A DNA stretch of 64,000 bases, taken from Naegleria gruberi (taxonomy: Eukaryota). Made by a program: the position numbers and the translations under genes. The notes under the pieces were generated by a model that worked only from the letters and a program-made list of their open reading frames with translations, did not search any database and was not told the DNA's origin. The stretch lies in assembly GCA_000004985.1 (NCBI GenBank), contig GG738848.1; one strand, given 5' to 3'. Every line of letters starts with the position of its first letter. Position 1 is the first letter of the stretch. This document shows, piece after piece, positions 40,468 to 62,576 of this stretch.

Positions 40468-43400
40468 TTATGCATTTTTAGCAAGATATTTTTCAATTTT
40501 TTCTTTAAACATATCATCAATGTAAGTATTTTGAATGTTAATTACTCGAATGGTATTATTCGATTTGGCAAAATCAATCAAAGCTAAAGCTGCACCAATT
40601 GAAATCAAATTTCCACTCAAATCAAGCTCAACAATTGTTGGATGAGGCTTGAGAATTGAGACTAGGGTTTCAATAGCTGGATTTCTGAACCCTTGTTTTG
40701 GCAAACTCAATTTGTGGAATTCAACATTTAAAAGAGTTTCCAAGAAAGGCTCTAATCCCTTATCACCTAAATAATTGTCTGATAAATTAACTTCTCCATC
40801 GGTGACGATAGTATTTGTGCCAAATTGAGCTCTAAGACGAGTGTTTGGTCTAAGAGATCTCTTTTCACAGTTTTCAACATACACATCCTCAAGAGTTCTT
40901 TCCTTAACAGGTTCTTCTTCCTTAGTTTCTTCCACCACATATTCAGCTTGAGCTTCTTCGACATGTGTTTCTTCTGGTTGTTTGTGTTTTTCTGGTGCGT
41001 CAACACTTGTTTCCTCATGAGGTTCTTGTTTTTCCTCTGGTTGTTGGTGTTTTTCTTGCTTGTCTTCTTGTGTTTCTTCTTTTTGAGATGATTTCACGTG
41101 TGTTTCTTCTGAGAGTTTGGTATCAACAAAAGTTTCTTGGTGTGTTTCTTCCTGTGTTTCTTCATGATGGTTTGTTTCATCTTGTGTTGTGTATGAATCT
41201 TCAATTGTTTTAGTTTCTTCAGCAAATCTCACATGATGTTCCTCTTCAGTGGAAGATTCTTCTGAAGGTTGTTCTTCAAAGGTTTCAAAATCTTCTTCAA
41301 ACGAGTCAAACTCATCTTCCTTTTGAAGTTCAGCTTGTTCTTCTTCATGAGTTGTCTCCTTTTGTTCTTTTTGGTTATCTGCTGTCTCAATCTCTTCTGC
41401 TTGTACCTCCTCTTGTTGGTCAACCTCAAAAGGCAAACTTTCTTCATGGAATGGTTCTTGAACTGTTTGTTCTCTTGGAGATTCTTCTCCAGGAAAATGA
41501 TCCATATCTGTTTCTTGTTGATGACTTGTATCTTCTTTTTCTTCAGCTTCTTCTGATTGTTCTTTCATTTCCTTTTCCACTTGATCAACAAACTCGTTTG
41601 ATTCTTGTTTAATTTCTGTTGATTCCTCATTTGCAAACTCTTCGAATTGTTCCTCGAATTGATCTTCGAAGTGATCTTCGAATTGTTCCTCATGTTGATC
41701 TTGAGTTTCCTCTTGAGTTGGTTCATGGTCTTCTTGAGTTTCTTCTTGAGTTTCCTCATATTTCTCTTCGAAAAATTGATCTGTTTCATTGAACTCTTCC
41801 GTATTTTGCTCGAATTCATCAGTAGTTTCATTGAATTGATTTTCCTCAAAGTTTTCTTCATGACTTTCAATATTTTCAAAATTCTCATGTGTTTGTTCTT
41901 GGTTTTCAAGGCTCTCGAAGGTTTCTTCTTCAGTATTTTCTAGGGCAACTTCGTTATTTTCTGAGAATTCTTGTTCAACATGTTGTTTGCTGTTTTCAAA
42001 TTCATCCTCTTTAGTGACTTCCTCAGAAGATACTTCCTTAATGGACTCTTCATGTGCTGTTTGGTGAACCTCAAAGTCCTCTTCTTCTGAAACATGTACC
42101 TCTTCTGATTGTTCTTCATGTGATTCTTCCAATTCCTCTTGCTTACTTTCCACATATTCAACTGTTTCTTCAACTTGTTTAATCTCGCTTTCCTGATTGC
42201 TTTCTTGATGTCCAATATGTTCTTCGGTGCATTTAATTTCATCATTTTGTTCTTTGTGACTGTGTTCCTCAATAATTTGCTCCTCTTGTTCCTCAACCTT
42301 TTTGACCTCATCAACACTTTCGTGCTTAACTTGATGATGATCTTCAACCCTATCATGGTGTTCTTCATTCTTGATATCTTCCCTATGTTCTTCAGTTGTC
42401 TCAATGTTTTCATGATTCTCTTCGGTATGTTTATGCTCTTCAACAGATGCTTCCTCAATAGCTTGAGGTTTCTCTGTATTGGCAACTTCAAAAGGTAAGC
42501 TTTCCTCTTGAGGTGGTTCTGTAACTGGTTCCATTTTTGGTTCTTCTTCTTTGACAATTTCTTGTGCATGGATTTCTACTATTTCTTCAGTTTGCTCTTC
42601 GGAGGATTTGTTAATAATCTCAGTCTCTTGATATGCAATATTTTCTTGCTTATCATCGTGATTATGCTTTTCCTTCTTCTCTTCATTATCATGCTTTTCC
42701 TTCTTCTCTTCGTGATCATGTTTCTCAACCTTTTCTTCTTTCTTATCGTCTTTCTTCTCTTCAGGATCATGTTTTTTCTTCTCTTCCTTTTCTTCCTCAA
42801 CTTTCTCATCGTGTTTAAGCTCGTTTTTCTTCTCTTCATGATCATGCTTTTCCTTTTTCTCTTCACGATCATGAATCTCAACCTTTTCTTCCTTAACTTC
42901 CTCATGGTTATGTTTATCCTTCTCTTCATGAACATGTTTCTCAACATTTTCTTCCTTAACTTCCTTCTCATGGTTATGTTTATCCTTCTTTTCTTCATGA
43001 TCATGTTTCTCAACATTTTCTTTCTTATCCTCGTCGTGATTATGTATATCCTTCTTTTCTTCATGATCATTCTTTTCCTTCTCTTCGTGGTCATGTTTCT
43101 CAACATTTTCTTCCTTAACTTCCTTAACCTCCTCGTGGTTATGCTTATCCTTCTTTTCTTCATTTTCTGATTTTTTCTCATGACCTATTTCAAATGGCAA
43201 ACCTTCTTCTTGGAGTGGTTCTTGAATCGTTTGTTCTCTTGGGGATTCCACGTCTGCAAAATGATCCATATCTTCAATGTCTCTATGGCTTTTAGTTTCA
43301 GTATCTTCTTGTTCATGTGTTTCATGATCATCTAAGGTTTGATATTGCTCATGGTCGTGGCTTTCAGGAAGGGTAGAGCTGGTTTCATCATGATCCTCCT

Positions 43401-46308
43401 CAGTACACTCTTGTTCAGAGTGCACATCATGGAGATGAATAATAGATGTGTTGATTTCTTCCACATATTCGTTATGTTGGTCCGAATGTACTTCTTGCTT
43501 GATTTCTTCAATATGTTCACCGTGTTCCTCAACCTTTGTTTCCTCATGATTATACTGTTCATCTTGATGATCTGATGGTTCATGATGTTGAGTGGAATCG
43601 TGAGATTCCTGCTCTTCCATTTTTTCTACATGCTCGTCTTGCGCGCCAAATTGTTCATCTGTTTGCTCTACAGTATTAAGGGTGGACTCTTCAACATTCA
43701 CTTCCTCTTCATGTTGTATTTCTTCAGATTTAGGTTCTTCTACTTGTTGGACAGGTTCCTCTTCAAGTGGTTCGGCTGGTTCTTCCTCAGATGGAGATTC
43801 TTCTTGAACTGTGTCCTCATGAGTTGCTTCTATGGCTTGCTCTTCCAGTGGTGTCTCTTCAATAGGTTGCGATTCTTCTTGAATCAGATCTTGTGATTCT
43901 TGAACCTCTTCCTCTGGAGAAACAGGTTCCTCTTGTTCAATTTCTTCTTGTTGAGCTTCTTCGAAAAGTTGCTCTTCTTGAGTCTCTCCGGCTGAATTTT
44001 CTTGGACTGGTTCTTCCTCTTGTGTTTCTTCTTGAACAGTAGATTCCTCAATTGGTGCTTCTTGAACTGTTGCTTCTGGTGTTTCCTCAATTGGTTGATC
44101 ATCTTCAGTTTCTTGAGGAATTTCTTCAGTCTGTTCTTGAGCAGGTTGCTCTTCTTGAACATATTCCTCAATGTCAGCAGGTTGTGCTTCTTGAGCAACT
44201 TCCTCTTGAGAAACAGGTTCTTCCTGTTGAAGTTCTTCTTGTTTATCCTCAACTTCATGAGCAGTTGCTTCTAATGGTTGTTCTTCGTGTACTGGTTCCT
44301 CATCTACAACTTGCTCTATTGCAGGTTCTTCTGGTTGAACTTCTTCTTGTAGTGGCTCTTCATGCTCCTGGGTAGTTTCTTCTTGAGTTGTTACTTCTTC
44401 TGGTTGAGTTTCTACAATCTCCTCAGCTGGTTGAACTTCTTCTTGTAGTGGCTCTTCAGGAGAAGCTTCTTCTGGTTGAGGTTCTTCAATTCTTTCCTCC
44501 TGGGTTTCTTCCACTGGTGGTTCTTCTACTGGCCCAACTTGCTCTGGTTCTTGGGTCTCATCAACAGCTGATAGCTCTTCTTGGTGAGTTTCCACTTCTT
44601 GATCTGTAGATTCGTCAACCTCCTGCACTGGAACAGTTTCTGGGGAGGGGTCTTCATTGAGTTTCTCTTCCTCAGCTTGTTCCCCAACAGGTTGAGCTTC
44701 TTGAACCTCTTCCTCTGGTTGAATTTCTTCTTGCTCTTCTTGAACATGATCTTGGGAAGATTCTTCCTGGGTTGGTTCTTCAACTGGTTGTGATTCTTCT
44801 TGAATCAGATCTTGTGATTCTTGTTGGACCTCTTCCTCTTTAGAAACAGGTTCCTCTTGTTGAAGTTCTTCTTGTTTATCCTCAACTTCATGAGCAGTTG
44901 CTTCTAATGGTTGTTCTTCGTGTACTGGTTCCTCATCAACAACTTGCTCTATTGCAGGTTCTTCTGGTTGAGCTTCTTCAGCAGGAGATTCTTCTTGAAC
45001 TGTCTCTTGAGTTGGCTCGACAGGAAGGTCTTCTTGTGTCTCCAATGGTGCATCTTCAACAGGTTGAGCTTCTTCCTGGGTTGGTTCTTCAACTGGTTGT
45101 GATTCTTCTTGAATCAGATCTTGGGAATATTCTTCCTGGGCTACTGGTTGTTCTTCTTGAGCTACTTCCTCTTGTTCAATTTCTTCTTGTTGAGCTTCTT
45201 CTTCGAAACGTTGCTCTTCTTGAGTCTCTTCAGCCGAATGTTCTTGGATTGCTTCTTCCTCTTGTGTTTCTTCTTGAATAGTAGATTCCTCAATTGGCTC
45301 TTCTTGAACTGTTTCTTCAGGTGATTCTTGGATTGGTTCTTCTTGAGGAACTTCTTCTGTGGATTGAAGTATTTCTTGAGTTTCTTCTGCTTGAGGTTGC
45401 TCTTCTTCAGAAGGAGAAGAATTCACTTCTTGAGGAATTTCTTCAGTCTGTTCTTGAGGAGAATTCACTTCTGTTGCCTCAACAGGTAGGGTTTCCTCTT
45501 CCACTTGTTCTTGAGCTGGAGATTCTTCTGTTTGAGGTTGCTCTTCCAACGGAGCTTCCTCTTCAATAGGCTTATCCTCTTCTTGTGAAGGTTCTTCCTG
45601 AAGTTGTTCGTCCTTAGCTTCAGGCTGGTTTTCCTCGTTCAATTGATCAACCTGGGTTTGTTCTGCTGTTTCCTCTGCAACAGTTTGATTTTCCTCCTGA
45701 AATTCATTTAATTCAGTTTCCCCAGTTGGTGCTGATTCTTGTGGCTTCTCTTCCTCTACTGGTTGATTTTCTTGAGGTGATTCTTCTTGGATTGGTTCTT
45801 CTTGAGGTACTTCTTCTGTTTCTTCGGCCGTAGAAGTATTCACTTCTGTTACTGCTTCGGAAACTTCGGCAGCATCTGAGACAGGTTGTTCCTCTGTTTT
45901 TTCGTCCACTTTGGAATCCTCTTCCTTTGTTGGTTCTGAAATTTCTTCAGTAGTATTATTCTCGATTTGTTCCTTTTTTTCCTCTACAGGATGTTCCTCA
46001 GTATTTTCATTATTTACAGAATTTGATGGTTCCTTATGCTCTTTTTCATCAGAATTGAGGTTAGAAGCCGATACATTTTTTGAACCTTGTTGTTTTTGCT
46101 GATACTCATCCTTGACTGTATTTGCTAGAGCATCTCTGAAAGAAGCATTATCGATAAGAACAGGCGTAAGCTCGACACTTGTAGGAAGACTTTCCACTAC
46201 AGGTTCTGTAATTTCATCTTCATTAAAGTCATCTGTTGTATTTCCGATTAGATTATTATCGTTATGAACCTCAGTGCTCATTCTTTTTGTTTTTTCAATG
46301 TTATACAC
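40468..46308 (-). CDS. Giant acidic low-complexity repeat protein of 1946 aa with a C-terminal RI-type leucine-rich-repeat cap.
   Basis: Single uninterrupted ORF. About 1750 aa are Glu/Gln/Pro/Val-rich imperfect repeats (EEPxQEE..., duplicated 40-mers EEPAIEQVVDEEPVHEEQPLEATAHEVEDKQEELQQEEPVS). There is a His/Lys/Glu block of decapeptide repeats (KHDHEEKKDKHNHEE...). The C-terminal 150 aa are LRR (NLSDNYLGDKGLEPFLETLLNVEFHKLSLPKQGF..ELDLSGNLISIGAALALIDFAKSNNTIRVINIQNTYI). Confidence 0.6.
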   Translation of the reverse strand: MYNIEKTKRMSTEVHNDNNLIGNTTDDFNEDEITEPVVESLPTSVELTPVLIDNASFRDALANTVKDEYQQKQQGSKNVSASNLNSDEKEHKEPSNSVNNENTEEHPVEEKKEQIENNTTEEISEPTKEEDSKVDEKTEEQPVSDAAEVSEAVTEVNTSTAEETEEVPQEEPIQEESPQENQPVEEEKPQESAPTGETELNEFQEENQTVAEETAEQTQVDQLNEENQPEAKDEQLQEEPSQEEDKPIEEEAPLEEQPQTEESPAQEQVEEETLPVEATEVNSPQEQTEEIPQEVNSSPSEEEQPQAEETQEILQSTEEVPQEEPIQESPEETVQEEPIEESTIQEETQEEEAIQEHSAEETQEEQRFEEEAQQEEIEQEEVAQEEQPVAQEEYSQDLIQEESQPVEEPTQEEAQPVEDAPLETQEDLPVEPTQETVQEESPAEEAQPEEPAIEQVVDEEPVHEEQPLEATAHEVEDKQEELQQEEPVSKEEEVQQESQDLIQEESQPVEEPTQEESSQDHVQEEQEEIQPEEEVQEAQPVGEQAEEEKLNEDPSPETVPVQEVDESTDQEVETHQEELSAVDETQEPEQVGPVEEPPVEETQEERIEEPQPEEASPEEPLQEEVQPAEEIVETQPEEVTTQEETTQEHEEPLQEEVQPEEPAIEQVVDEEPVHEEQPLEATAHEVEDKQEELQQEEPVSQEEVAQEAQPADIEEYVQEEQPAQEQTEEIPQETEDDQPIEETPEATVQEAPIEESTVQEETQEEEPVQENSAGETQEEQLFEEAQQEEIEQEEPVSPEEEVQESQDLIQEESQPIEETPLEEQAIEATHEDTVQEESPSEEEPAEPLEEEPVQQVEEPKSEEIQHEEEVNVEESTLNTVEQTDEQFGAQDEHVEKMEEQESHDSTQHHEPSDHQDEQYNHEETKVEEHGEHIEEIKQEVHSDQHNEYVEEINTSIIHLHDVHSEQECTEEDHDETSSTLPESHDHEQYQTLDDHETHEQEDTETKSHRDIEDMDHFADVESPREQTIQEPLQEEGLPFEIGHEKKSENEEKKDKHNHEEVKEVKEENVEKHDHEEKEKNDHEEKKDIHNHDEDKKENVEKHDHEEKKDKHNHEKEVKEENVEKHVHEEKDKHNHEEVKEEKVEIHDREEKKEKHDHEEKKNELKHDEKVEEEKEEKKKHDPEEKKDDKKEEKVEKHDHEEKKEKHDNEEKKEKHNHDDKQENIAYQETEIINKSSEEQTEEIVEIHAQEIVKEEEPKMEPVTEPPQEESLPFEVANTEKPQAIEEASVEEHKHTEENHENIETTEEHREDIKNEEHHDRVEDHHQVKHESVDEVKKVEEQEEQIIEEHSHKEQNDEIKCTEEHIGHQESNQESEIKQVEETVEYVESKQEELEESHEEQSEEVHVSEEEDFEVHQTAHEESIKEVSSEEVTKEDEFENSKQHVEQEFSENNEVALENTEEETFESLENQEQTHENFENIESHEENFEENQFNETTDEFEQNTEEFNETDQFFEEKYEETQEETQEDHEPTQEETQDQHEEQFEDHFEDQFEEQFEEFANEESTEIKQESNEFVDQVEKEMKEQSEEAEEKEDTSHQQETDMDHFPGEESPREQTVQEPFHEESLPFEVDQQEEVQAEEIETADNQKEQKETTHEEEQAELQKEDEFDSFEEDFETFEEQPSEESSTEEEHHVRFAEETKTIEDSYTTQDETNHHEETQEETHQETFVDTKLSEETHVKSSQKEETQEDKQEKHQQPEEKQEPHEETSVDAPEKHKQPEETHVEEAQAEYVVEETKEEEPVKERTLEDVYVENCEKRSLRPNTRLRAQFGTNTIVTDGEVNLSDNYLGDKGLEPFLETLLNVEFHKLSLPKQGFRNPAIETLVSILKPHPTIVELDLSGNLISIGAALALIDFAKSNNTIRVINIQNTYIDDMFKEKIEKYLAKNA
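42650..43170. repeat. Intragenic tandem array of about 30-33-nt units (..atcatgcttttccttcttctcttc..). These encode the KHDHEEKK(E/D)KHNHEE repeats of the giant protein.
   Basis: Visible as periodic near-identical strings in the sequence. An antisense ORF (42579..43181) of RKK/MRK repeats mirrors it. Confidence 0.7.
43860..45400. repeat. Intragenic segmental repeats inside the giant gene. A near-identical copy pair of about 120 nt lies at about 44225..44345 and 44867..44987. A roughly 40-nt motif (ggttgtgattcttcttgaatcagatcttg..) recurs at about 43861, 44781 and 45081.
   Basis: Direct comparison of the sequence lines (cttcttgtttatcctcaacttcatgagcagttgcttctaatggttgttcttcgtgtactggttcctcatc.acaacttgctctattgcaggttcttctggttga). 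This matches the duplicated 40-aa peptide blocks. Confidence 0.7.
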
Positions 46309-49771: not shown

Positions 49772-52510
49772 TTACTTTCTGTGGGCAAGAATGTGTACAC
49801 CATCATTAATTCTGGCACGAATATTACCCAAACTTTCCTTGATCTTATCACGGAAAGCATTATCTGCTTCCTCTTTAGAGGCATCGAGAATTAAACATTT
49901 TCTCAACCACAAGACATCTTCAATACTTGACAATTCTGGGATACCTGTACCCAACATTAATGTAAACAAGGTCATTATCATGTGACCATATTTACGTAAA
50001 ATATTGTAAGCCTTACAACCTAATTCACTGAATTTTTCATACATGACACTATTTTCACCACCCATAACATAGGCATACATTGGAGTGAAAACGAAAGGAG
50101 TAGTTTCACGTTTCAAACCAGCAAATGTCTTAAAGTGCCCCAAAAAGTGGCCAAAGTCAATGTGGAACAAGTCTCCCTTCTTGGTTATCATAATATTGTC
50201 ATTGTGTCTGTCACCAATACCTAAAACATAGGTTGCAGAACAGTAACCTGCACAAGAGTGTACAAAGTTATTAACTACTGTATCCCATTCTTCTTCACCG
50301 TTATGTTCTTTGAGCCATTTGTAAATTGGATCTTGTTTGAAAGCACCAGAGAAACCAGCTCTCTTCTTTGTAATATTTGCAATGGTTTGACTGTTTAAAA
50401 CAATTTCAAGCATACCAGTCATATAACCAGTACAAATACAACCATAAGGTTGCATATGAAGATCTAAACCTTCCTTCTTCCACAACTGATCCATAACACG
50501 TAAAACTTGCAAGGTCAATAAATCCTGACGTAAATCGTCACCAGCCTTAAACATGACAAGAATATCATCACCTGTTTCGTCAGCATTCTTGAAACAAAGC
50601 CATAATGGCCTCTTTGCAGAGTCCATGACTCTACATTTTTCTGGAATGATACCAATAACTTCCATACGTGGAGAGAGTGGTAACTTGTATTTTGGTGGTT
50701 GTTTGAGTCCATGAAGTAATTGTACAAGTGCTTCATTAACAGTAGCCTTCTTTTCATGTTTGATCTTAATGGCAATATCGAGCAATTGATCCAAAACACC
50801 GTTTTGTTTCAACAATTCTCTTCTGTGACCACCTGAATTCAATAAATATTCTTCCAAGATAAGACCGTGTCTCTCTTTTGCTGTTGGAACGTGCATTTCG
50901 GCCTTCAAATGCCAAAAGAGAATGTGACCAATGATGTGTGTTGATCTCAAACCTCTTTGAAGCAAAAATCTAGCAAGACTACTGTCATGATATAATTCAT
51001 ACTTAAGTGTTTGAACTAATTGAAGCAAAAAGTCACTCAATTGAACATCTCCTAATTCATTAAGTCTTTCAACTGAATATTGTCTAACTTTTGCATCAGC
51101 AAAGTTATAGTCCAATAATTCTAAAGCATCAACTGGAGTCATTGGTTTCCATCTAGGAAGTAATGTGTGAACAGTATAGACAGCTTGTGGCATCTTCCAT
51201 GGCACGCTCAAAATAAACTTTGGTAAAGCTTTTGGTATGTCAACAAGCTTTTCCTTATTGGACCAAAGTAACCATTTTTCTTCCTCTGTTAGATTTTGAA
51301 GTGGATCTTTGGAAATAATCTGATCAAGTCTCTGTTTCAGTTGTTCTCCTTGTGGTAAATCTTTGAAAAATTCATTAATCTTTTGTTCAAAAGAGGCCAA
51401 ACGTTTAGCCATCTTCTTTGGAGGTCTACCTTGAGGGAAGACCACTGGCAGTGGATAACGATCAAATTGATAAGCAATAACGATTGGTGTTTCATCAGTT
51501 CCAGTATTTTCAGCAACGACACTAATTGGTTTAGCTCTATCATTTGGCCACATTGGAGAAAGATAATCTCCTTGGTTCAAAAATCCCTTAAAGTTAATCA
51601 TTGTCTTAATCACATAACCGAGAGGAATATCCTTTGTACTGACGTGTGAAGGTGTATGGAAAGGATCTTTGGAAGTTGTTTGATTCTTTGTTATCACTCT
51701 TGAGAAGAGAGTAAAGCAGAGCTTTGTTTCTCTTGGAATATCAGAAAGTAAAACATCATCAAATACTATGAATTGATTCCATCTAGGAGATCTACTGAAA
51801 GGTACCATTTTAGTAAATCTGGCTTTTGTAAGTGGTGTACCACCGTGATATAATTCACAGCATACATATAAATAGGTATCGTCAATTTGAGACAAATTTG
51901 AAATAGAGTTGAAATTGAGATTGTCAATGCCCATAATTTTAACTCGTGCACATTTGACTAAATCCCACAAACTCAAATACTGCATTTTGTGCCATTCCTT
52001 TTCTCCAAAACGAATGTCATCATGTGCATAAATTTTTTGGTCCTTCTCGTGTTTAAAATCATATGAAACAGTTTTAAGAGTGACATCTCTAGGATCCAAT
52101 TCAGCCTTCACAGTTTCCTTATCTAAAAGTGTTAGTGTTGGCTTAACTGCCTTTTTCATACATTTTCTAATATGTTCAAATTCTGCCATTTTGTAATCAC
52201 CATACATGTATTCGGCAGTACCAGCTGCTTTAAATACCCAATCTTCCTTCTTTCTTCTCTGTTGATGGGCTGTATTCAATTTGTTTAAAAATATTTCAGC
52301 AAAATCGTCAGCTGTCGTGTTAAAATCACATTCAACAAGTTTTGCTGCCTTATTACCATCAAGTGTACAATTTACGTTAATGTAGAATTTTTTAGTCAAT
52401 TCATTTGGATTAATTGGTTCAACACTCAAAAATACAGGTGGAAGGAAAGCTTCTCTGTCTTCACTTTTCTTATCACTCTTTTCAAAGTGTTGAAGTCTGA
52501 AATTTTCCAT
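49772..52510 (-). CDS. Phosphatidylinositol 3-kinase catalytic subunit, class I-like. It has Ras-binding, C2, PIK-helical and PI3/4-kinase domains.
   Basis: 912-aa ORF. The RBD-like N-terminus is VFKAAGTAEYMYGDYKMAEFEHIRKCM. The helical domain is LWSNKEKLVDIPKALPKFILSVPW..LELLDYNF. The kinase domain has GDDLRQD, the catalytic loop GIGDRHNDNIM and the activation loop HIDFGHFLG. Confidence 0.85.
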   Translation of the reverse strand: MENFRLQHFEKSDKKSEDREAFLPPVFLSVEPINPNELTKKFYINVNCTLDGNKAAKLVECDFNTTADDFAEIFLNKLNTAHQQRRKKEDWVFKAAGTAEYMYGDYKMAEFEHIRKCMKKAVKPTLTLLDKETVKAELDPRDVTLKTVSYDFKHEKDQKIYAHDDIRFGEKEWHKMQYLSLWDLVKCARVKIMGIDNLNFNSISNLSQIDDTYLYVCCELYHGGTPLTKARFTKMVPFSRSPRWNQFIVFDDVLLSDIPRETKLCFTLFSRVITKNQTTSKDPFHTPSHVSTKDIPLGYVIKTMINFKGFLNQGDYLSPMWPNDRAKPISVVAENTGTDETPIVIAYQFDRYPLPVVFPQGRPPKKMAKRLASFEQKINEFFKDLPQGEQLKQRLDQIISKDPLQNLTEEEKWLLWSNKEKLVDIPKALPKFILSVPWKMPQAVYTVHTLLPRWKPMTPVDALELLDYNFADAKVRQYSVERLNELGDVQLSDFLLQLVQTLKYELYHDSSLARFLLQRGLRSTHIIGHILFWHLKAEMHVPTAKERHGLILEEYLLNSGGHRRELLKQNGVLDQLLDIAIKIKHEKKATVNEALVQLLHGLKQPPKYKLPLSPRMEVIGIIPEKCRVMDSAKRPLWLCFKNADETGDDILVMFKAGDDLRQDLLTLQVLRVMDQLWKKEGLDLHMQPYGCICTGYMTGMLEIVLNSQTIANITKKRAGFSGAFKQDPIYKWLKEHNGEEEWDTVVNNFVHSCAGYCSATYVLGIGDRHNDNIMITKKGDLFHIDFGHFLGHFKTFAGLKRETTPFVFTPMYAYVMGGENSVMYEKFSELGCKAYNILRKYGHMIMTLFTLMLGTGIPELSSIEDVLWLRKCLILDASKEEADNAFRDKIKESLGNIRARINDGVHILAHRK

Positions 52511-52513
52511 AAA

Positions 52514-53137
52514 TTAATATTTGATCATATTTGTGAAATAGTCCCCGAGAGTTAGATAAATTGTTGGATGATAATTGTGGTCAATCATTCTATTCAAAAT
52601 AGTTTTTACATACTTTTTAAAGGTTTCACGAGTAATTTGAACTTCTTCAGAATTCGAACTCCATTCTTTTGTTGGTCCAAGAATAATTTCAATTTCCTTT
52701 CTAATTTCCTCTTGTGTTGATGAGTTAGCCAAACGTTTACTTGTCTATTATTGTCAAATAACAAGAGTGACAATAAAAGTGATGATCAATGTGATTGTAA
52801 AGATGATAATAGCAATGACGATCCGCAAATAGTGATAAAAGAATAACCATCAATTAATAGATTGAATAGTAGATTATCAACAACACATTCCATCAATATA
52901 TTCCAACAATATAAACATTGTTACTACTAGTTGTTGAAGATTACTACTAACCTCATCGTCTTCCTCCAAAATTTTTCTCCAATGTTCCTCATCTCTTGCT
53001 GTTACTTTACCAAATTTTTCCAATCGCTTGATCATAGCCTCCATTTCTTTAGAGTCCTGTACTGATTCTCCATTTTCACCTCCATTCTCTGTTGTTGTTG
53101 GAGTTGTTGGTGTTTTTGGCTCTGCTTCGACAGGCAT
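52514..53137 (-). CDS. Small two-exon ORF of about 132 aa: 53137..~52958 and ~52745..52514. It ends 3 nt upstream of, and in frame with, the PI3K ORF.
   Basis: Exon 1 (MPVEAEPKTPTTPTT..RKILEEDDE) ends at a gttagtag donor. The acceptor aataatag|ACA continues TSKRLANSSTQEEIRKEIEIILGPTKEW... The stop TAA is at 52516..52514, followed by TTT and the PI3K ATG, all in the same frame. Confidence 0.4.
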
Positions 53138-54200
53138 TTTTTTATTGGCTTGATTGGTTAATCATCTATCACAAAATTCTTCTTTCGCTACTCGACATCA
53201 ATGGTTTCTTTGCCTTTTGATGATTACTTGTTGGTTATTATGCACACAATTGTTGACAGAATTTATTCAAGTTGTTAGGGAAACCAATTGTTACATTAGT
53301 TTAGAGAGTAAATAATGGGCTCAACTTTACAAAATATCAAATGAAAAATGTTTCTAAACAATATGTAAAAGCAAAAATCAACAAGCAAGTTGTGACCTAG
53401 GAAAGTGATGAAAACTCAGTAATCATCAGTCTTTTTATCCGTGGTTGTGAACTAGGTTGTAAAAATTAATCATCTTAACATATTCTTGTCAAAGTCTTTC
53501 GTGACAATGTTTTAACATTGACCGTTGCAACATTAGTTTCATTACAACAGTAAATCAAGGGGTTGGATAGTAGGAAACAATACATAGCCAAGTCAGATAA
53601 GGGATCATGTTTTAACAAAACTGTAGTAAAATTCCTTGTTTCTACAAATTTCGCCACTCATTCTCAATTTAGACAAAAATCAACAACTTTTTTTTCACAA
53701 CTGGTTGACGATCCTTAACGCGATGAACATCCAAATCTCCATTGATAAGCAACAACAACTGCTCATTGAATGATTATCTAATCACTAAAAACTTTTGTAT
53801 CAAAATAATTATTGGAAATGAAAGTGAAACTGGGTATTCAATCAAATTGTCTGATTGATTATCCACTACAGCTCGGTCTCAATGACGAGGAACAAAGGAT
53901 TCTCAAACTCTGGCCGAAATGATTGAATAAAAATAAATCATGACCAGAAAAGTTAATTTTGCGAGAGAAATCACCGTTATGAATCGCCTCCAAGCAATAA
54001 TATTGTAGCGCTAGCTAATCAATTTGACAAAAAAAACGTGCGTTCAATCAATTGTACAAACCGCCAAACAACAACAACAACTAGTGATAGGTACTTTCAA
54101 TAACAAGTTTGTTCCTATTCCCAACCCATTTCATACCTAGAGATTTATGCTCCTATAAGCCAATCATTTTCTATAATTTCATTCCTTACAAATCATCATC

Positions 54201-55964
54201 ATGAATTTTGAATCAAACATCCCAAAGAACTCTTCCCTTGAAGACTTTTTTAGTGGTGTTTTCAATACTAGTGCATCACACTCTTTCATGATGAATAATG
54301 ATGATAACATGTACTTGGATGAAAATGTTAATGAATTCTTTGGAACTAGTCCTGAGCAAGATCCATTCTCCTCCTACTTCCCTTTCAATAATAACAATAA
54401 TAGTTTTTATGCCACCTCCTTCCCTGAAAATTCATCACCAATTAATAACATCAATGAAACCCAACAACAAATTGCCAAATCCTCCTCTATCCTCTCCCTA
54501 ACTGATTTTAAGCCTTCCTTCTCTAGAACCTCTTCCTCTACCTCATTTGCAGGATTGCAAACCCCATCTATTCTCCACAATGGTGAATCCTCGCCGATGG
54601 AAAGCTTCCATCAAATGGATGAATTCCAACGTCAATTAGATGAAGATTTTTTGAGAAATGGTGGTGTTACCTCTCTCAATATTTCTTCAGAAAGTGCTTT
54701 CAAACCAAGATCTGATCAACATTTGTTTAAATTTAATAAGCAAATGGACTTTTTAAGCGGTATTCCAAAACCATCAACTACAGAATCAAATCAAGACATT
54801 TTTGCCTCATTGAATGATATTTCAGAGTCACTTATTGAAGAACCACCAAAAGATTCTACTATTGATGCTATGGATACTTCGAGTGTAAATTCCAAAACTA
54901 CACCTGGTCTTCCACCAGGTCATAAGATAATCAACGGTGAAATGTATAATGACAGAGGATATAAGATTTGTGGTTTTATGAATCAACATAATAGACCATG
55001 TCAAAGAATTGGTAAATGCCCATTCCACGATAGAATGAAGAGTGATAAACCTTTATCCACAAATAGTGATGGTATTATTGCTGCTCAGGATAGTATTGAA
55101 CCAGAACATTTTGCACCAACTCAGGTCGTTAAAGAAAAGAAGAAGAGTGAAAAGAAATCAAAGAAGAAACAAGACGAAACTCTGTTAGAAGTTCCATCAG
55201 TTGAATCTTTGACTACAAGTACTACCACAGCCAGTGCTTCAACAACAACTGAAGATAAACCAGCAACCAAGAAGCCATACAAGCAAGGTTGGACCAAGGA
55301 AGAACATATTCTCTTCCTTAAAGGTCTTGAACTTCACGGCAAGGGAAGCTGGAAGGAAATAAGTGCAATTGTTGGTACAAGAAGTCCAACTCAAATCCAA
55401 TCACATGCTCAAAAATATTTCCTCAGACAAAAACAACAAAAGAAGAATAAGCGATCAATTCATGACTTTACAATGGATGACATGAAGAAACAAGATTCAG
55501 TTGAAGAAGTTGAAGAAAACAATCACAAGAGAAAGAGAAACAAATCCAAATCAAAAGAATCCAAGAAGACTGGAGCTGTTCATTCTGAAGATTCATTATC
55601 ATCAGAACCACAATTAGAAGTATTTGGTGAAACTCTTGTTGGTGATGCTAATGCCTCACTTATGAAACAATTCACTTTAGCTCCTCCTAAACCACAACAA
55701 CCTCAACCACAAGATGCAAACTATATGGATATTATTAACAAGTTGAACCATTTGAAAAGCTTTCCCAAACAGTCACCTTCTACTGGCAAGTCTTCTGCTT
55801 TCAGCAGCGTTTCCTCGGACGAATTAGACTTTCACTTCAATACAAACAACGAATCAATTCCAACAGTTACAGAGGAACATTCTGATCTTTATGATGCTTG
55901 GGAAATTGGCGAATCATCAACAATAGATGATGTTGCTCCTTTCCAAAAGAAAATCAAATTGTAA
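54201..55964 (+). CDS. Myb-related DNA-binding protein of SHAQKYF class with a single SANT/Myb repeat.
   Basis: 587-aa ORF. The Myb repeat is WTKEEHILFLKGLELHGKGSWKEISAIVGTRSPTQIQSHAQKYF. Basic NLS-like tracts and Asn/Ser-rich low complexity are present. A Cys/His cluster C..C..C..H is upstream. Confidence 0.7.
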   Translation: MNFESNIPKNSSLEDFFSGVFNTSASHSFMMNNDDNMYLDENVNEFFGTSPEQDPFSSYFPFNNNNNSFYATSFPENSSPINNINETQQQIAKSSSILSLTDFKPSFSRTSSSTSFAGLQTPSILHNGESSPMESFHQMDEFQRQLDEDFLRNGGVTSLNISSESAFKPRSDQHLFKFNKQMDFLSGIPKPSTTESNQDIFASLNDISESLIEEPPKDSTIDAMDTSSVNSKTTPGLPPGHKIINGEMYNDRGYKICGFMNQHNRPCQRIGKCPFHDRMKSDKPLSTNSDGIIAAQDSIEPEHFAPTQVVKEKKKSEKKSKKKQDETLLEVPSVESLTTSTTTASASTTTEDKPATKKPYKQGWTKEEHILFLKGLELHGKGSWKEISAIVGTRSPTQIQSHAQKYFLRQKQQKKNKRSIHDFTMDDMKKQDSVEEVEENNHKRKRNKSKSKESKKTGAVHSEDSLSSEPQLEVFGETLVGDANASLMKQFTLAPPKPQQPQPQDANYMDIINKLNHLKSFPKQSPSTGKSSAFSSVSSDELDFHFNTNNESIPTVTEEHSDLYDAWEIGESSTIDDVAPFQKKIKL

Positions 55965-56041
55965 AATAAGAAGATAAAGTTTTCTCCAATAATCTAGATT
56001 AAATAGAACCTTTTTAGAAAAAGTTATCTTCACACAAAAAA

Positions 56042-59000
56042 ATGGTCACCAACAGTCACAACCATTTTCTTATCATCACAATCATCACTCTCCTCTTGTT
56101 TTCGGAGAGATTATTTTGCCAACAAATGCCCAAAGTTAACCTCTTTGTGGATACAACATCAACAACACCTTCGATAAATAATTGCACAACAATAGAAAGT
56201 CCATGTACTTCAATACTGGAAGCAGTAGGAATTGTGGACACTTTTAATTCTGTGAGGAGTGCAACTGCATTCTCCATTTTACTTTTATCTGACATTATTA
56301 AAAATGATGAAGGAATTAACTGTTTTGTTCCTATAACTTTGAAAAATCCAAGTTTTGTCTCAAAATTTACTTTCCAAGCCTACAATAACACAATTCGATC
56401 GGAATGCCAAATAATTTTAAATTCAAATGTATTTATTACTTTTTCTAACATAGAATTTACATCAGTAGAATCACTTCCAACATCAGTTGAAGTTGTTACA
56501 ATAGAATATTCTTATTGTAAATTTATTGGAATTAATGTGGTGAAGACTTTTGTGAGAGGTTTATATTCTTTTGCAAATTCTATCATTGAGAATAGCTCTA
56601 TAGAAATTAGGTCTGCCTATGGGATAACATTTAGAGATTCAATTATCAGGAATAGTCAACTCAAATTTTCATCTTCAAACTCGTTTTTTTTCATGAGTAG
56701 TGAATTAAGAGATTCTTCAATGACAGTAGAAGATACAAGGACATCCCAAGCTCTATATTCAAAATTTTATAATGATTCCTCAAGCTTTTTTTCGATTGGA
56801 TCTTTGAGTTTTTTCAATTCTAATTTTGATCAAGGAAGATTAAGGGAATATTTCTTTATCAATAGTTTAGTAATGCAATCATGTACATCCAACAGCGGTA
56901 AATGGTTCAACGCTAGATCAATAATTTCGGCAGCATTCACAGATTGTACAATAACTGGTGATGGAAGAAATAGAAACTCTGAATCAGTTTTATTAGATAC
57001 AATAGATTCTGTGAGGATTATTGGCTTTGTTATTACAAATTATAAGGGCAGTGGTATTAGAAGTTTTAATATTGGAAATTTGAGTATTTTATCCTCAATA
57101 TGCAAAAATCTGGAATCTTTTGCCGGAGATGCGTGCTTTACAACTTCAGGTGTTAATATAGTTACTTTTGACCAGTGCTATTTCACAAATACTTTAGGTA
57201 CATCTCTTTCAATTTCGAGCACAAACGAAATTACCGTTAAGAATTCATTATTTTCGAATGGCATTGGTACATCCATTAATGCTCTTATTTCAGAAAATCT
57301 ATTGTTAGACTCAGTTTCCTTCCTAAATAATACAATTGCACCAAGGGTAAACGAATTACAAAATGGTTTTGACCTTAGTATAATGAATATTCGTCAAGTA
57401 ACTATTCGATCCACAACAACAAATGGCCCAGAAATTACAAATGGTTTTAGTATTTATTGCAGATTACTAAACGTTAAAAAAGTAAAAGGGGAGTTTGAAT
57501 GCAAGAGATCTAGTTCTGGACAAGTTAGTGGCTGCTTTTTTATGTGGTTAAATGAACCGTATGTGCCTGGAACTGTAGATGTTGAGGTCAAGACAAATCA
57601 AGATATTTCTAAATTGGAATATGGAAAACTAATTGCTTCAACGCCAAATAGAGTGGAGGTCAGCCCAGATAATGAAGTATATAAGAATGGGATGGTGAAT
57701 TTATATCCGGGTCAAGTTACAAATTTGAAATTATTGGCATATGATTACCTTAATATTAGTCAGCCATATCTTTACAAAAGGTTAATTTTACAAATGAATG
57801 GAACCCACATTTATTCAGATGATTTTGTAAACACTACTATGATGGGGGTTTCATTTTACATATTTCATCCCTCACTTATAGGTACAGTTGCATATATGAA
57901 GTTTATCAGGGAGCGTACAATATCAAATGTGTCAGTATTAATTTCTGATTGCCCTTCTGGACATAAACTAAGTTGTGTAAATGAGAACCACTATATTTGC
58001 GAAAAAGTTTTGGATCTGACTTCTATAGTTGTTGGTGCTGTATTTGGATTTATTTTGCTATTAATTATAGGTATATCAGTAGGGTCAATTTCATTTTATG
58101 TTGTTAGAAAACAAGTTGTAAACAAACTTAAAACTCTGAAAAACAAAGAGATGGCTGAAAAGGAAATACAAGAAAAGATTATTTCTAAGGATATCATTTT
58201 TGATGGATTGGAAAGTGAAGGAAATTGTATAGATTCCACAAAATTTGCCCCATCATTTTTAATTCCTGTAGATAGCCTTTGTATCGTTAAACAATTAGGT
58301 TCAGGAGGAGGAGGAATTGTTTATGAGTGCACCTGGTATGTTTTTAATTTATTTTGATTATTCAAATTTGAATTTTTGTGGAATTAGGAATGGAACTCAG
58401 GTTGCAATTAAAACTATAAGAAATGATAATGTGGACAATGAGGAATTTGAGACTGAGGTTTCACTTCTTAAGAGTTTAAGGTAAGCATATAGAATATTTG
58501 AAAAATAGTGGTCTAACTCAAACAGACATCCAAATATTGTTTCTTTTTATGGAATAAGTCTAACTTCTAACTCTAAAATTCTAGTTATTGAATATATGGA
58601 GAAAGGTAGCTTGGATACTCTAATTAACGAGTGTAGGGTAGGAAGAACTTCAATTTCACTAAAAAAGAAATTGGATATTTTGCTTGATATTTCCAGTGGT
58701 ATGGATTATCTTCACACAATCAATCCAAAGATTATTCATAGGTAAGTTCAGAAATAATATTAATTTTCTAATTATTTCATTCTAATTACAGAGATTTAAA
58801 ACCTGGTAATGTCTTGCTGGATAAGAATTTAAGATGTAAAATTTCAGATTTTGGATTGAGTAAAGTTTCTACTGAGGGAACAATGACACAAAATATAGGT
58901 ACCATGTTGTATCTAGCTCCAGGTAAGTTTTAATCTAGTCTCATTGTGTTGTAAAATATCTCCAGAGATGTTTAACGGTACCAATCCAAGCGAAATATCA

Positions 59001-60898: not shown

Positions 60899-62512
60899 TC
60901 ATTTCACTTTCATATTTGGGTGAACACCTGTAACGAGTAGTGCTTTGGATTTGCCGTTGATGTTTGCTCTATTGATGGAAAAACTTGGAGCATTAATGTG
61001 TTTCACATTCTTGCAATCCCTAATTTCACCTCCTAATGAGTTGTTACATTTCACCGATTTCAAATCGTTACAGTTAGAAAGAGAAAAGAATTTACAACTC
61101 CTAGAATTCTTTGAAAGGTCAATGGTTGAAAGTTTGGAACAATTGTCGAGAGTAAGATTTGATATAATAGAGTTGTCCAGAATGTTTGCCATCTCATCGT
61201 CTTCAATTTTTGTATTTTTGATTGTTAATTTCAAATCTGAAGACCGTATTTCTACATATTTAAGCTTTTCCATATTTTCAATTACGAGTGAAATTGAAGA
61301 AATATCAACTGATAGTTTCCTCAGCGTTCTACAATCCTTAACTACCCAATTCGAAATAGATGAAGAGTTAGATGAATGAACTCTTATTTTTCTAATACTC
61401 TTAAAAATTGATAAATCCATTAAATAAGACAGCCACGTAGAGAATGTAGATTCTGAAAAATCCAAATGTGATTGAATGTCCAATTCCAATGATTGAAGTA
61501 AGCTCAACTTGGGTAATGTCAATGTACATAATGTCTCTTGCTTAATTGCTAACCCCAGCGTATCCAATACAGGACAATCAAGAATGTGAATTCCTTTCTC
61601 TTCCTCTCTTGAAAAATTATTTACAGTAAGCTTTTTCAAATTCGGCAAATTGGAGAATTTGAATTTGTCACAGTATGAATCCAGGTACTTTCCATTAAAA
61701 GAAAGAGTGTACGTAGATGTTTTAAGGGATATGGATTTGATATTTGGTGTTAAAAGGTAATGTTGAGAATGAGATGTCGTCTCACTATTATTGTAACATG
61801 GCGAAGGCAGTGTATGAAATTGAAAATGTTTCAATTTTGGAAAATGGTTTCCCAGCTGCATAACAAATGAATCGTCTCGTAAGTGTACAGTTATTGATAA
61901 ATATTTCAAATTTTCAAAATGATCCTTAAATCCTTCATATAATGAAATCTTCTTAAATTTGATTGATTTGAATGTCAAAATTAAATGTTTTAAATTTGGA
62001 ACCCAAGAGGGGTTGAGTAAAAATTGATGCATATTTGAAGATTCGATGTGCACAGAAGTTAATTGATTCACTTTTGTGAATAATTCATGGCAAACCTTTT
62101 CAGATACTTGCAAACAATTGGTAGAATACCATTCCCTAATTGCAAAATTACTCCTCTCAATAATTTCCAATAACTTTTCCTCCTTCAAAATTGAACGTTT
62201 AGAGAAGCAATCATTCTTTAATAAAATTGATCTGAGAGTTTGATTGTCACCACTTGGTTTTGCAAGTGAGGAATCCAAATATATTGTTTTAAATATCAAT
62301 CCCGAGAGTAATCCTCTCTCAATCACATTATAAAAACACTTGTTTATATATTTGAGACAAGCAAAAAATTCCGTGGTAGAGGAATATTGCAAAATAGTGG
62401 CAACAATCTCATCAATTGAGAATAGGCAATAATCCAACTTTTTAACCTTTCTTTGAGGATTCTCATTCATTGCTCGAGCCGAAGAAGAAATAGATGCTCG
62501 GCTTCGTTTCAT
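60899..62512 (-). CDS. F-box/leucine-rich-repeat protein of 537 aa.
   Basis: F-box-like LFSIDEIVATILQYSSTTEFFACLKYINKCFYNVI. LRR segments LKHLILTFKSIKF, LKYLSITVHL, LPNLKKLTVNNF, LQSLELDIQSHL. Confidence 0.5.
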   Translation of the reverse strand: MKRSRASISSSARAMNENPQRKVKKLDYCLFSIDEIVATILQYSSTTEFFACLKYINKCFYNVIERGLLSGLIFKTIYLDSSLAKPSGDNQTLRSILLKNDCFSKRSILKEEKLLEIIERSNFAIREWYSTNCLQVSEKVCHELFTKVNQLTSVHIESSNMHQFLLNPSWVPNLKHLILTFKSIKFKKISLYEGFKDHFENLKYLSITVHLRDDSFVMQLGNHFPKLKHFQFHTLPSPCYNNSETTSHSQHYLLTPNIKSISLKTSTYTLSFNGKYLDSYCDKFKFSNLPNLKKLTVNNFSREEEKGIHILDCPVLDTLGLAIKQETLCTLTLPKLSLLQSLELDIQSHLDFSESTFSTWLSYLMDLSIFKSIRKIRVHSSNSSSISNWVVKDCRTLRKLSVDISSISLVIENMEKLKYVEIRSSDLKLTIKNTKIEDDEMANILDNSIISNLTLDNCSKLSTIDLSKNSRSCKFFSLSNCNDLKSVKCNNSLGGEIRDCKNVKHINAPSFSINRANINGKSKALLVTGVHPNMKVK

Positions 62513-62576
62513 TTTTTTTGTTGAATTTATTTACAATTCATTTGGACAATCTTGCCTAGACATGTATCGAACAATG

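What the first reader, a model, noticed from the sequence alone, without database searches (positions are those of the whole stretch)
52500..53137. In-frame TAA stop 3 nt upstream of the PI3K start codon, with the upstream two-exon ORF possibly being the PI3K N-terminus
On the minus strand the sequence reads ..ATC AAA TAT TAA TTT ATG GAA.. The upstream 132-aa two-exon ORF and the 912-aa PI3K ORF are in the same frame, separated only by a TAA codon and one TTT codon. A 3-nt intergenic spacer is implausible for two independent eukaryotic genes. The PI3K ORF begins at its Ras-binding domain with no adaptor-binding or N-terminal region. The options are a single gene with a stop codon that is a sequencing error, a nonsense polymorphism, or translational read-through; or a uORF-like arrangement.
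Basis: seen in the sequence. Interest (0 to 1): 0.55.

Follow-up and report, generated by a model that had tools for sequence, protein, structure and literature searches.

The report
Overlooked intron in Naegleria PI3K gene

Summary
On the minus strand, TAA (52516-52514), TTT and ATG (52510-52508) separate two ORFs in the same frame, and the 912-aa ORF starts about 30 residues before its Ras-binding domain.

The TAA is not a functional stop. It lies in a canonical GT-AG intron at 52613-52497: AAAAA|GTATGT…CTAAC…TTTCAG|A, phase 2, 117 nt.

Splicing gives E1 53137-52952, E2 52744-52614 and E3 52496-49772, a 1013-aa class I PI3K.

Evidence:
- Two relatives' contigs have an intron at exactly this site and phase, and L001's exon 2 is the same 131 nt long.
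- L002 and several other relatives, including a Pharyngomonas transcript, read continuously across the site.
- Of all 21 in-frame GT..AG options, this intron fits a relatives-only profile best (233.6 bits; read-through 215.8; 912-aa ORF alone 156.2).
- An independent 99.6%-identical assembly carries the same TAA, so it is not a sequencing error.
- TAA ends 17 of 20 long ORFs in the window, so it is not reassigned.
- The AlphaFold model (pLDDT 88) runs one helix across the junction.
- Exon 2 aligns to the ABD-RBD linker of mammalian p110.

The window is N. gruberi NEG-M. The public model, XP_002682091.1, is a 522-aa partial. This is ordinary biology and an annotation fix. No RNA data were available.

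The parts
52952..53137 (-). Exon 1 (186 nt, 62 codons): start ATG at 53137-53135, MPVEAEPK...KILEEDDE; phase-0 donor follows.
   Evidence: model; in-frame TGA 27 nt upstream of the ATG. Naegleria-like metagenome fragments P0026/L082 and P0087 share the MP.. start and the ...HWRKILEEDDE|GTTAGTAGTAAT boundary; DNA similarity collapses right after the donor.
52745..52951 (-). Intron 1 (207 nt, phase 0): GTTAGT...ACAATAATAG; GC 0.28; stops in all three frames.
   Evidence: The same intron position occurs in L001 (53 nt) and L002 (35 nt). Relatives without this intron read ..EDDETSK.. continuously (L083/P0056, P0039, Pharyngomonas transcript P0004). The near-identical strain L084 has a 3-nt indel here.
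52614..52744 (-). Exon 2 (131 nt): TSKRLANSSTQEEIRKEIEIILGPTKEWSSNSEEVQITRETFK + the first two bases (AA) of a split Lys codon. Encodes the conserved helical module homologous to the p110 ABD-RBD linker.
   Evidence: L001 exon 2 is also exactly 131 nt; L002 starts with the identical TSKRLA; G85, W90, E96 invariant in 15 sequences; profile aligns to p110gamma 117-307 and p110delta 97-274; pLDDT 85-92.
52497..52613 (-). Intron 2 (117 nt, phase 2): GTATGT donor (52613-52608), CTAAC branch-like motif (52555-52551), TTTCAG acceptor (52502-52497). Contains the in-frame TAA (52516-52514), TTT (52513-52511) and the supposed PI3K start ATG (52510-52508). GC 0.26.
   Evidence: Best of 21 in-frame GT..AG candidates against a relatives-only HMM. 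Introns at the same site and phase in L001 (46 nt, GTATGT..TACTAAC..CAG) and L083 (123 nt, GTACGT..CACAG). No intron and a continuous ORF at this site in L002. The proposed acceptor is the first AG downstream of the CTAAC (read from the sequence). Identical in independent assembly L084. No Rfam hit inside it.
49772..52496 (-). Exon 3 (2725 nt including the TAA stop at 49774-49772): starts with the third base of the split Lys codon, then LQHFEK...; encodes RBD (about 52118-52420), C2, PIK helical domain and kinase domain (about 49928-50557).
   Evidence: Pfam PI3K_rbd, PI3K_C2, PI3Ka, PI3_PI4_kinase; p110alpha E=2.5e-151; AF2 pTM 0.90; Foldseek TM 0.76-0.79 to p110alpha/gamma over 972-991 alignment columns.

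Best explanation
The window is Naegleria gruberi NEG-M. The two ORFs are exons of one class I PI3K catalytic-subunit gene on the minus strand. The gene has three exons (53137-52952, 52744-52614, 52496-49772) and two ordinary U2-type GT-AG introns (207 nt and 117 nt).

The TAA, the TTT and the 'start' ATG all lie near the 3' end of intron 2 (52613-52497) and are removed from the mRNA. The intron splits a Lys codon (AA|A, phase 2). Its length happens to be a multiple of three, which is why the flanking exons look in-frame in genomic DNA. Translation starts at ATG 53137 and gives a 1013-residue enzyme.

The enzyme consists of a short disordered tail, an all-helical N-terminal module (the counterpart of the ABD-RBD linker of mammalian p110, with no ubiquitin-like adaptor-binding domain), then RBD, C2, helical and kinase domains.

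Shown here: the splice signals, the conserved intron position, collinearity with relatives, the presence of the TAA in a second assembly, and the fold. Inferred: that the intron is actually spliced in vivo. No RNA data were available.
For: (1) Signals. AAAAA|GTATGT...CTAAC...TTTCAG|A, with the acceptor being the first AG after the CTAAC. Other introns in the same window use the same GTATGT/GTAAGT donors and ..ATAG/TTAG acceptors, e.g. GAAG|GTATGT...ACAATAATAG| at 14732. Intron GC is 0.26-0.28 against 0.32-0.41 in the exons.

(2) Conserved intron position. L001 (metagenome relative, 52% identity overall) has a 46-nt GTATGT..TACTAAC..CAG intron at the same codon and phase after an exon 2 of the identical 131 nt. 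That intron is not 3n, so it must be spliced. L083 has a 123-nt GTACGT..CACAG intron at the same site and phase.

(3) Relatives without the intron read straight through. L002 (56% identity over 877 aa) runs TSKRLA...FRESMTQTRTFGERKENVERQDLLPPVF in one ORF. The distance from TSKRLA to LPPVF is 62 aa in the spliced window protein, 61 in L002 and 56 in L001. The unspliced window would add 39 codons and hit the TAA.

(4) Exhaustive search of 1.84 billion representatives with the spliced N-terminus. Full-length PI3Ks of Acrasis kona (P0002), Pharyngomonas kirbyi (P0004, a complete transcriptome ORF) and others (P0005, P0007) align in one stretch from about residue 3-33 to 372, across junction 105/106. 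The 15-sequence alignment has no gap at the junction.

(5) Unbiased enumeration. Of 21 stop-free in-frame GT..AG introns, 52613-52497 scores highest against an HMM built only from relatives: 233.6 bits, against 215.8 for read-through and 156.2 for the 912-aa ORF alone.

(6) Independent assembly L084 (ENA ERZ929261, 99.6% identical, 10 SNPs + 2 indels) has identical exon 2 and intron 2, including the TAA. Its two exon-3 SNPs are synonymous.

(7) TAA terminates 17 of 20 long ORFs in the window, including this gene.

(8) AF2 of the spliced protein: pLDDT 88.3, pTM 0.90. Residues 31-110 reach about 85-92 (63 for 41-50), and helix 95-107 spans the junction. Foldseek aligns 972-991 columns to p110alpha/gamma. 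A profile of the N-termini hits p110gamma residues 117-307, E=8.7e-13.
Against: There is no transcript, EST or peptide evidence from N. gruberi itself, so splicing is inferred. At 117 nt, intron 2 is longer than the 45-80-nt introns seen elsewhere in the window, although intron 1 of the same gene is 207 nt. The CTAAC lies 55 nt from the acceptor, rather far for a branch point, and the other introns printed from the window do not contain an exact CTAAC, so the motif adds little. Alternative boundaries (e.g. 52609/52478) score only 7 bits lower, so the exact acceptor rests on homology plus signal quality. The public annotation does not contain this model, which is absence of confirmation rather than contradiction.
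Confidence: 0.93

Rival explanations
1. There are two independent genes, or a uORF-like bicistron. A 138-aa upstream protein terminates at TAA 52516-52514, and the PI3K is translated separately from ATG 52510, for example by termination-reinitiation.
For: The genome is compact, with same-strand spacers of 64-77 nt in this window. The ATG follows the stop by 3 nt. A prokaryote-style ORF caller does produce a clean 912-aa ORF.
Against: The upstream exons are not an independent protein family. In every relative found they are the N-terminus of a PI3K, joined to the RBD, and they align to the p110 ABD-RBD linker. The last 33 residues of the putative 138-aa protein (YVKTILNR...MIKY) have no homologue. 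The TAA-TTT-ATG arrangement is not conserved: the L001 intron is 46 nt, and the L083 intron has a different sequence. A search with the 138-aa product finds only ORF-caller fragments of exon 1.
Confidence: 0.02
2. It is a single gene whose coding sequence is interrupted by a genuine in-frame TAA, arising from a sequencing or assembly error, a strain-specific nonsense polymorphism, or a pseudogene.
For: The frame is the same on both sides, and there is only one stop in the 39 intervening codons.
Against: The same TAA and identical flanks occur in an independently sequenced, non-identical isolate (L084), whose only coding differences are two synonymous SNPs. That pattern fits purifying selection, not a pseudogene. 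Treating the 117 nt as coding inserts 39 residues absent from all 14 aligned relatives and lowers the profile score by 18 bits. 17% of shuffles have at most one in-frame stop, so the open frame is unremarkable.
Confidence: 0.015
3. The TAA is decoded rather than terminating, through programmed stop-codon read-through or a reassigned/ambiguous TAA, giving a 1052-residue protein.
For: The frame is preserved across the stop. Context-dependent stop reassignment is known in some protists (general knowledge).
Against: TAA ends 17 of 20 long ORFs in the window, including this very gene, and long ORFs contain no internal TAA. The read-through peptide is not conserved. A canonical intron at a conserved position fully explains the data.
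Confidence: 0.005
4. The intron is real, but its retention is regulated. Because it is 3n with a stop followed by an ATG, a retained-intron mRNA could yield the N-terminal module alone, and/or a 912-aa enzyme starting at the RBD by reinitiation.
For: The geometry (3n length, one in-frame stop, ATG 3 nt later) permits it. Intron retention is reported as the commonest form of alternative splicing in non-animal eukaryotes (abstract of PMC6142364, listed). L083's homologous intron is also 3n (123 nt) with an in-frame stop.
Against: The arrangement is expected by chance in about 1% of introns. Neither the intron sequence nor the stop-ATG pair is conserved in relatives: the L001 intron is 46 nt, not 3n. 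No expression data are available.
Confidence: 0.03

Closest known systems
Mammalian class I PI3K catalytic subunits (p110alpha/beta/delta/gamma; e.g. PDB 4jps, 8aj8, 8so9)
   Same: The domain order is the same: RBD, C2, helical (PIK) and kinase. Sequence E=2.5e-151 to p110alpha over residues 191-991. The predicted fold superposes over 972-991 alignment columns, TM 0.76-0.79. The exon-2 module aligns to the helical segment between ABD and RBD.
   Different: No PI3K_p85B/ABD domain is detectable. The N-terminus is all-helical and only about 125 residues long before the RBD. No regulatory subunit was looked for.
Heterolobosean class I PI3Ks: Acrasis kona KAL0485481.1/KAL0487727.1, Pharyngomonas kirbyi transcript GECH01004784.1, N. 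gruberi paralogue XP_002678075.1
   Same: They share the N-terminal module (..ILEDDETS..EI.KEIE.LLG..KEWSSESEE..FR.. about 18 aa ..LPPVYL) directly upstream of the RBD; 35-58% identity.
   Different: Exon-intron structures differ among the relatives whose DNA was read (metagenome contigs of unidentified organisms). The intron-2 site is occupied in the window, L001 and L083 and empty in L002. N-terminal tails vary in length. The public N. gruberi paralogue model lacks the RBD, probably through mis-modelling.
Public N. gruberi gene model for this locus, XP_002682091.1 / EFC49347.1 ('predicted protein, partial', 522 aa)
   Same: It is identical in sequence to residues 490-1011 of the 1013-aa model, covering the helical and kinase domains.
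   Different: It lacks exons 1-2, the RBD, the C2 and the last two residues. No protein containing exons 1-2 joined to the PI3K exists in the 15-billion-sequence collection.
Canonical short GT-AG spliceosomal introns of Naegleria gruberi
   Same: GTATGT/GTAAGT donors, AT-rich body and YAG acceptor, as in other introns of this window. N. gruberi introns are reported often to sit at positions shared with other eukaryotes (PMC3488318, citing the genome paper).
   Different: Nothing unusual except the 3n length and a single in-frame stop, which makes it look like an ORF junction.

Membership tests
Class I PI3K catalytic subunit (p110-type) | Ras-binding domain (PF00794) | tested here: met
   E=8.6e-16, residues 31-131 of the 912-aa ORF; residues 132-232 of the spliced protein, E=7.8e-17.
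Class I PI3K catalytic subunit (p110-type) | C2 (PF00792), helical PIK (PF00613) and PI3/PI4-kinase catalytic (PF00454) domains, in that order | tested here: met
   E=1.4e-17, 1.1e-54 and 6.8e-62. E=2.5e-151 to p110alpha.
Class I PI3K catalytic subunit (p110-type) | Helical linker N-terminal to the RBD (the ABD-RBD linker of p110) | tested here: met
   the profile of 15 N-termini aligns positions 32-212 to p110gamma 117-307 (E=8.7e-13), and to p110delta/beta from the linker onward; helices 61-107 are confident.
Class I PI3K catalytic subunit (p110-type) | Adaptor-binding domain (PI3K_p85B, PF02192; defines class IA) | tested here: not met
   no hit, even at E<=10; the N-terminus is all-helical with no beta-grasp. 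It is therefore class I by RBD/C2/PIK/kinase, but not demonstrably class IA.
Class I PI3K catalytic subunit (p110-type) | Overall p110 fold | tested here: met
   AF2 pTM 0.90; Foldseek E about 3e-60, TM 0.76-0.79 to 4jps_A, 8aj8_A and 8so9_A.
Class I PI3K catalytic subunit (p110-type) | Produces PtdIns(3,4,5)P3 and binds Ras-GTP | not testable with these tools
   Biochemistry is required.
U2-type GT-AG spliceosomal intron (for 52613-52497) | Consensus 5' splice site | tested here: met
   GTATGT at 52613-52608. The same hexamer starts other introns in the window and the homologous intron in L001.
U2-type GT-AG spliceosomal intron (for 52613-52497) | 3' splice site YAG preceded by a T-rich stretch; branch-point motif upstream with no intervening AG | tested here: met
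   TTTCAG at 52502-52497; CTAAC at 52555-52551; no AG between them (sequence). The branch-to-AG distance of 55 nt is long, so the branch assignment itself is tentative.
U2-type GT-AG spliceosomal intron (for 52613-52497) | Removal restores a continuous frame collinear with homologues | tested here: met
   best of 21 candidates, 233.6 bits against 215.8 for read-through.
U2-type GT-AG spliceosomal intron (for 52613-52497) | Position and phase shared with orthologous genes | tested here: met
   L001 and L083 have a phase-2 intron at the same codon. L002 lacks it and reads through.
U2-type GT-AG spliceosomal intron (for 52613-52497) | Absent from mature mRNA | not testable with these tools
   No N. 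gruberi RNA data are accessible. The only transcript-level support is indirect, from the Pharyngomonas TSA ORF P0004.
Stop-codon read-through / reassigned TAA | TAA occurs in-frame inside other conserved genes, or is avoided as a terminator | tested here: not met
   17 of 20 long ORFs end in TAA. ORFs of up to 1946 aa have no internal stops.
uORF / termination-reinitiation bicistron | The upstream ORF is a unit separate from the main protein, and the stop-start overlap is conserved | tested here: not met
   The upstream exons are part of the PI3K in all relatives. The stop-ATG pair is absent from the homologous introns.

The most novel reading that the evidence does not exclude
Regulated retention of the 3n intron 2 acts as a switch. 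The unspliced mRNA would terminate at TAA 52516-52514 to give the free N-terminal helical module. By reinitiation at the ATG 3 nt downstream, it would also give a 912-aa PI3K that starts at its RBD, splitting the enzyme from its N-terminal linker module. Separately, the conserved ABD-less helical module (ILEDDETS...LLGxxKEWSSESEE...FR) shared by the heterolobosean relatives, and by two Asn-rich fragments of unidentified origin (P0120, P0145), might bind an unknown, non-p85 partner.
Probability: 0.03. Interest if true: 0.4.

Novelty: already known. Interest (0 to 1): 0.1.

Why it matters
Biologically this is an ordinary spliced gene. No recoding, bicistron or pseudogene is involved. The practical value is a corrected, complete model for one Naegleria gruberi class I PI3K: 1013 aa in three exons. 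The public record is a 522-aa partial without RBD or C2. The case also shows that in this compact, intron-poor genome a 3n intron can look like a stop-start junction. The alignment further delimits a conserved, ABD-less helical N-terminal module in heterolobosean class I PI3Ks. That module corresponds to the p110 ABD-RBD linker and may interest people studying how PI3K regulation evolved or targeting Naegleria PI3Ks.

Tried and rejected
- **First homologue search.** The word-indexed search with the read-through N-terminus gave a single hit, P0001. It was useful only because its contig, L001, could be fetched.
- **First metagenome scan.** The scan with the N-terminal alignment found no relative. 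The second scan, with the full-length alignment, gave L002-L081; only L002 carried detectable N-terminal exons.
- **Intronic snoRNA or other RNA explaining the longer intron.** Rfam found nothing in the window at gathering thresholds, and nothing in 52300-53300 at E<=1. There are no tRNAs.
- **Alternative genetic code.** Rejected on stop-codon usage.
- **ABD in exon 1.** Pfam is negative and AF2 shows only helices.
- **Public N. gruberi gene calls around the locus and for the paralogue.** These are not on record in the gene-position index, so I could not see whether the upstream exons are annotated as anything in GenBank. A search of the protein collection shows no NCBI protein containing them.
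- **Initial L001 intron-1 acceptor.** My first choice (TTATAG) broke the frame. The correct acceptor is CAACAG, 10 nt downstream.
Full report
**Observation.** On the minus strand the window reads ...ATC AAA TAT TAA TTT ATG GAA..., with TAA at 52516-52514 and ATG at 52510-52508. The ATG opens a 912-aa ORF (49772-52510) that is in frame with the upstream ORF. Pfam finds PI3K_rbd at residues 31-131 of that ORF, followed by PI3K_C2, PI3Ka and the PI3/PI4-kinase domain. PDB sequence search gives E=2.5e-151 to p110alpha. It is 138 aa rather than 132.

Thirty-three codons upstream of the TAA, the sequence AAAAA|GTATGT (52613-52608) is a textbook 5' splice site. Fourteen bases downstream of the TAA, TTTCAG|A (52502-52497) is a textbook 3' splice site. 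A CTAAC lies at 52555-52551, with no AG between it and the acceptor. The segment 52613-52497 is 117 nt and splits a Lys codon (AA|A, phase 2). Because 117 is a multiple of three, the two exons look in-frame in genomic DNA. Splicing gives a three-exon CDS of 3042 nt, encoding 1013 aa. Other introns in the same window use the same signals, for example GAAG|GTATGT...ACAATAATAG| at 14732 and several GTAAGT...TAG introns of 45-80 nt. Intron GC is 0.26-0.28, against 0.32-0.41 for the three exons.

**Comparative test 1: the same intron in relatives.** The only hit to the N-terminus in the word-indexed database, P0001, lies on metagenome contig L001. Hand-splicing L001 with canonical sites yields an uninterrupted 1000-aa PI3K, 52% identical to the window protein.
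- Its exon 1 ends ..QEDAE|GTAAGT; the window has ..EEDDE|GTTAGT.
- Its exon 2 starts ACAAGT (Thr-Ser), as in the window.
- Its exon 2 is exactly 131 nt, as in the window.
- It is followed by a 46-nt GTATGT...TACTAAC...CAG intron in phase 2 at the homologous codon.
- Since 46 is not a multiple of three, that intron must be removed to keep the frame.

A further relative, L083, fetched through fragment P0056, has a 123-nt GTACGT...CACAG intron at the same codon and phase. A prokaryote-style ORF caller read into it, giving '...FRKSMKRYVV...'. This parallels the window's '...ETFKKYVK...'; in both the Tyr-Val comes from the first intron bases (GTATGT here, GTACGT there) read in frame.

**Comparative test 2: relatives without the intron.** L002 (56% identity over 877 aa) has 35-nt introns elsewhere. 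At this site it reads continuously: TSKRLAHEASEEEKRKETTTLIGKTRVWSSEGSEATNFRESMTQTRTFGERKENVERQDLLPPVFIASEP. The distance from TSKRLA to LPPVF is 61 residues in L002, 56 in L001 and 62 in the spliced window protein. The unspliced window would add 39 residues and a stop.

An exhaustive HMMER scan of 1.84 billion representative proteins with the spliced N-terminus (residues 1-372) gave 191 hits. Four full-length or near-full-length PI3Ks align in a single stretch from about residue 3-33 to 372, across junction 105/106: P0002, P0004, P0005 and P0007. P0002 is Acrasis kona PI3K. P0004 is a complete ORF from the Pharyngomonas kirbyi transcriptome, which is mRNA-level evidence in a relative that the N-terminal module and the RBD form one protein. 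A 15-sequence alignment shows no gap at the junction. Columns G85, W90 and E96 (exon 2) and L124 and P125 (exon 3) are invariant.

**Unbiased enumeration.** I generated every GT..AG intron that removes the TAA and keeps a stop-free frame, 21 in all. Each product was scored against an HMM built from the 14 relatives only.
- 52613-52497 is best, at 233.6 bits.
- The next candidates score 226.7, 226.2 and 224.2.
- Read-through of the TAA scores 215.8.
- The 912-aa ORF alone scores 156.2.

The upstream exons therefore add 77 bits of PI3K-specific signal, and the 39 intronic 'codons' cost 18.

**Organism and public annotation.** The neighbouring 587-aa ORF (54201-55961, plus strand) is an exact match to N. 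gruberi NEG-M XP_002681941.1. The 912-aa ORF clusters with XP_002682091.1/EFC49347.1, a 522-aa 'predicted protein, partial' that covers only the helical and kinase domains. Neither the 1013-aa model nor the 138-aa product exists in the 15-billion-sequence collection. The only database proteins containing exon 1 are ORF-caller fragments from metagenomes. Class I PI3Ks have already been reported in N. gruberi (PMC3823935). N. gruberi introns are reported often to sit at positions shared with other eukaryotes (PMC3488318).

**Rivals.**
- *Sequencing error or nonsense polymorphism.* An independent ENA assembly (L084, ERZ929261) is 99.6% identical over 4.2 kb, with 10 SNPs and 2 indels, so it is a different isolate or run. 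It carries identical exon 2 and intron 2, including the TAA. Its differences are intergenic, a 3-nt indel in intron 1, and two synonymous SNPs in exon 3.
- *Reassigned TAA or read-through.* TAA terminates 17 of 20 long ORFs in the window, including this gene.
- *Separate genes or uORF.* The upstream exons have no existence apart from PI3Ks, and the stop-ATG arrangement is not conserved in the homologous introns.
- *Chance.* 3.2% of shuffled versions of this intron show exactly one in-frame stop followed by an in-frame ATG. With the 1/3 chance of a 3n length, about 1% of introns would look like this.
- *Regulated intron retention.* This cannot be excluded without RNA data, but nothing supports it.

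**What the N-terminus is.** A profile of the aligned N-termini hits full-length p110gamma (8aj8_A residues 117-307, E=8.7e-13), p110delta (97-274) and p110beta. The match starts in the helical segment that precedes the RBD. AlphaFold2 on the spliced protein with a 30-sequence alignment gives mean pLDDT 88.3 and pTM 0.90. Residues 1-23 are disordered. Residues 20-107 form six helices, with pLDDT about 85-92 from residue 31 (63 for 41-50). Helix 95-107 runs straight across the exon 2/exon 3 junction. Foldseek aligns 972-991 columns to p110alpha and p110gamma structures, TM 0.76-0.79. No PI3K_p85B domain is detectable. The enzyme is class I by RBD/C2/PIK/kinase architecture and has the p110-type linker, but it has no recognisable adaptor-binding domain.

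**Verdict.** The finding is an overlooked canonical intron. The result is an annotation correction for one N. gruberi gene, not new biology. The remaining uncertainty is the lack of direct N. gruberi transcript evidence, and therefore the exact acceptor and the extent of any intron retention.

Noticed in passing
window 40468-46308 (-): A 1946-aa ORF with 29% glutamate and many short degenerate tandem repeats (e.g. a 66-nt unit x3.6 at 42836-43070). It ends in a C-terminal segment of about 120 aa that looks like an RNI-type leucine-rich repeat. It accounts for the strong AT-skew (-0.45) and raised GC (0.43) at 41-46 kb.
   Followed up: partly
window 10430-14731 and 14814-15695 (+): A 1433-aa ORF joined by a roughly 50-nt GTATGT...AATAATAG intron to an exon with an adenylate/guanylate-cyclase-like motif (..FFSDMVGFTSLSS..). 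It served as a reference for the local splice signals.
   Followed up: no
N. gruberi paralogue XP_002678075.1 (P0003, not in the window): The public 866-aa model has the same N-terminal module (..EEIRKEIELIIGPENEW..FREK..) but jumps straight to ..ISYDFKYERDQ.., skipping the whole RBD. This is probably a second mis-modelled PI3K gene. Its DNA could not be retrieved.
   Followed up: partly
window 49772-52510 (-) versus XP_002682091.1: The public model for this locus is a 522-aa 'partial' protein lacking RBD and C2, even though a 912-aa ORF is open in the genome.
   Followed up: yes
window 55964-56042 and 62512-62577: Same-strand neighbouring ORFs are separated by only 77 and 64 nt. The genome is very compact, which weakens any argument based on 'implausibly short' spacers.
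   Followed up: no
P0019 (190-aa metagenome fragment; not in the window): At the homologous junction it reads ..NNMAKYVFRKSYLKFARKRLGNKTKESAVLPPVY.. The 'KYV' would be a GTATGT read in frame, but only 24 residues separate it from LPPVY. It is unclear whether this is a short in-frame intron read through or true coding sequence.
   Followed up: no
L001, L002, L083 (metagenome relatives): Intron sizes are tightly lineage-specific: all seven L001 introns are 46-54 nt with CTAAC-like branch motifs, both L002 introns are exactly 35 nt, and the L083 introns are 87-123 nt.
   Followed up: partly
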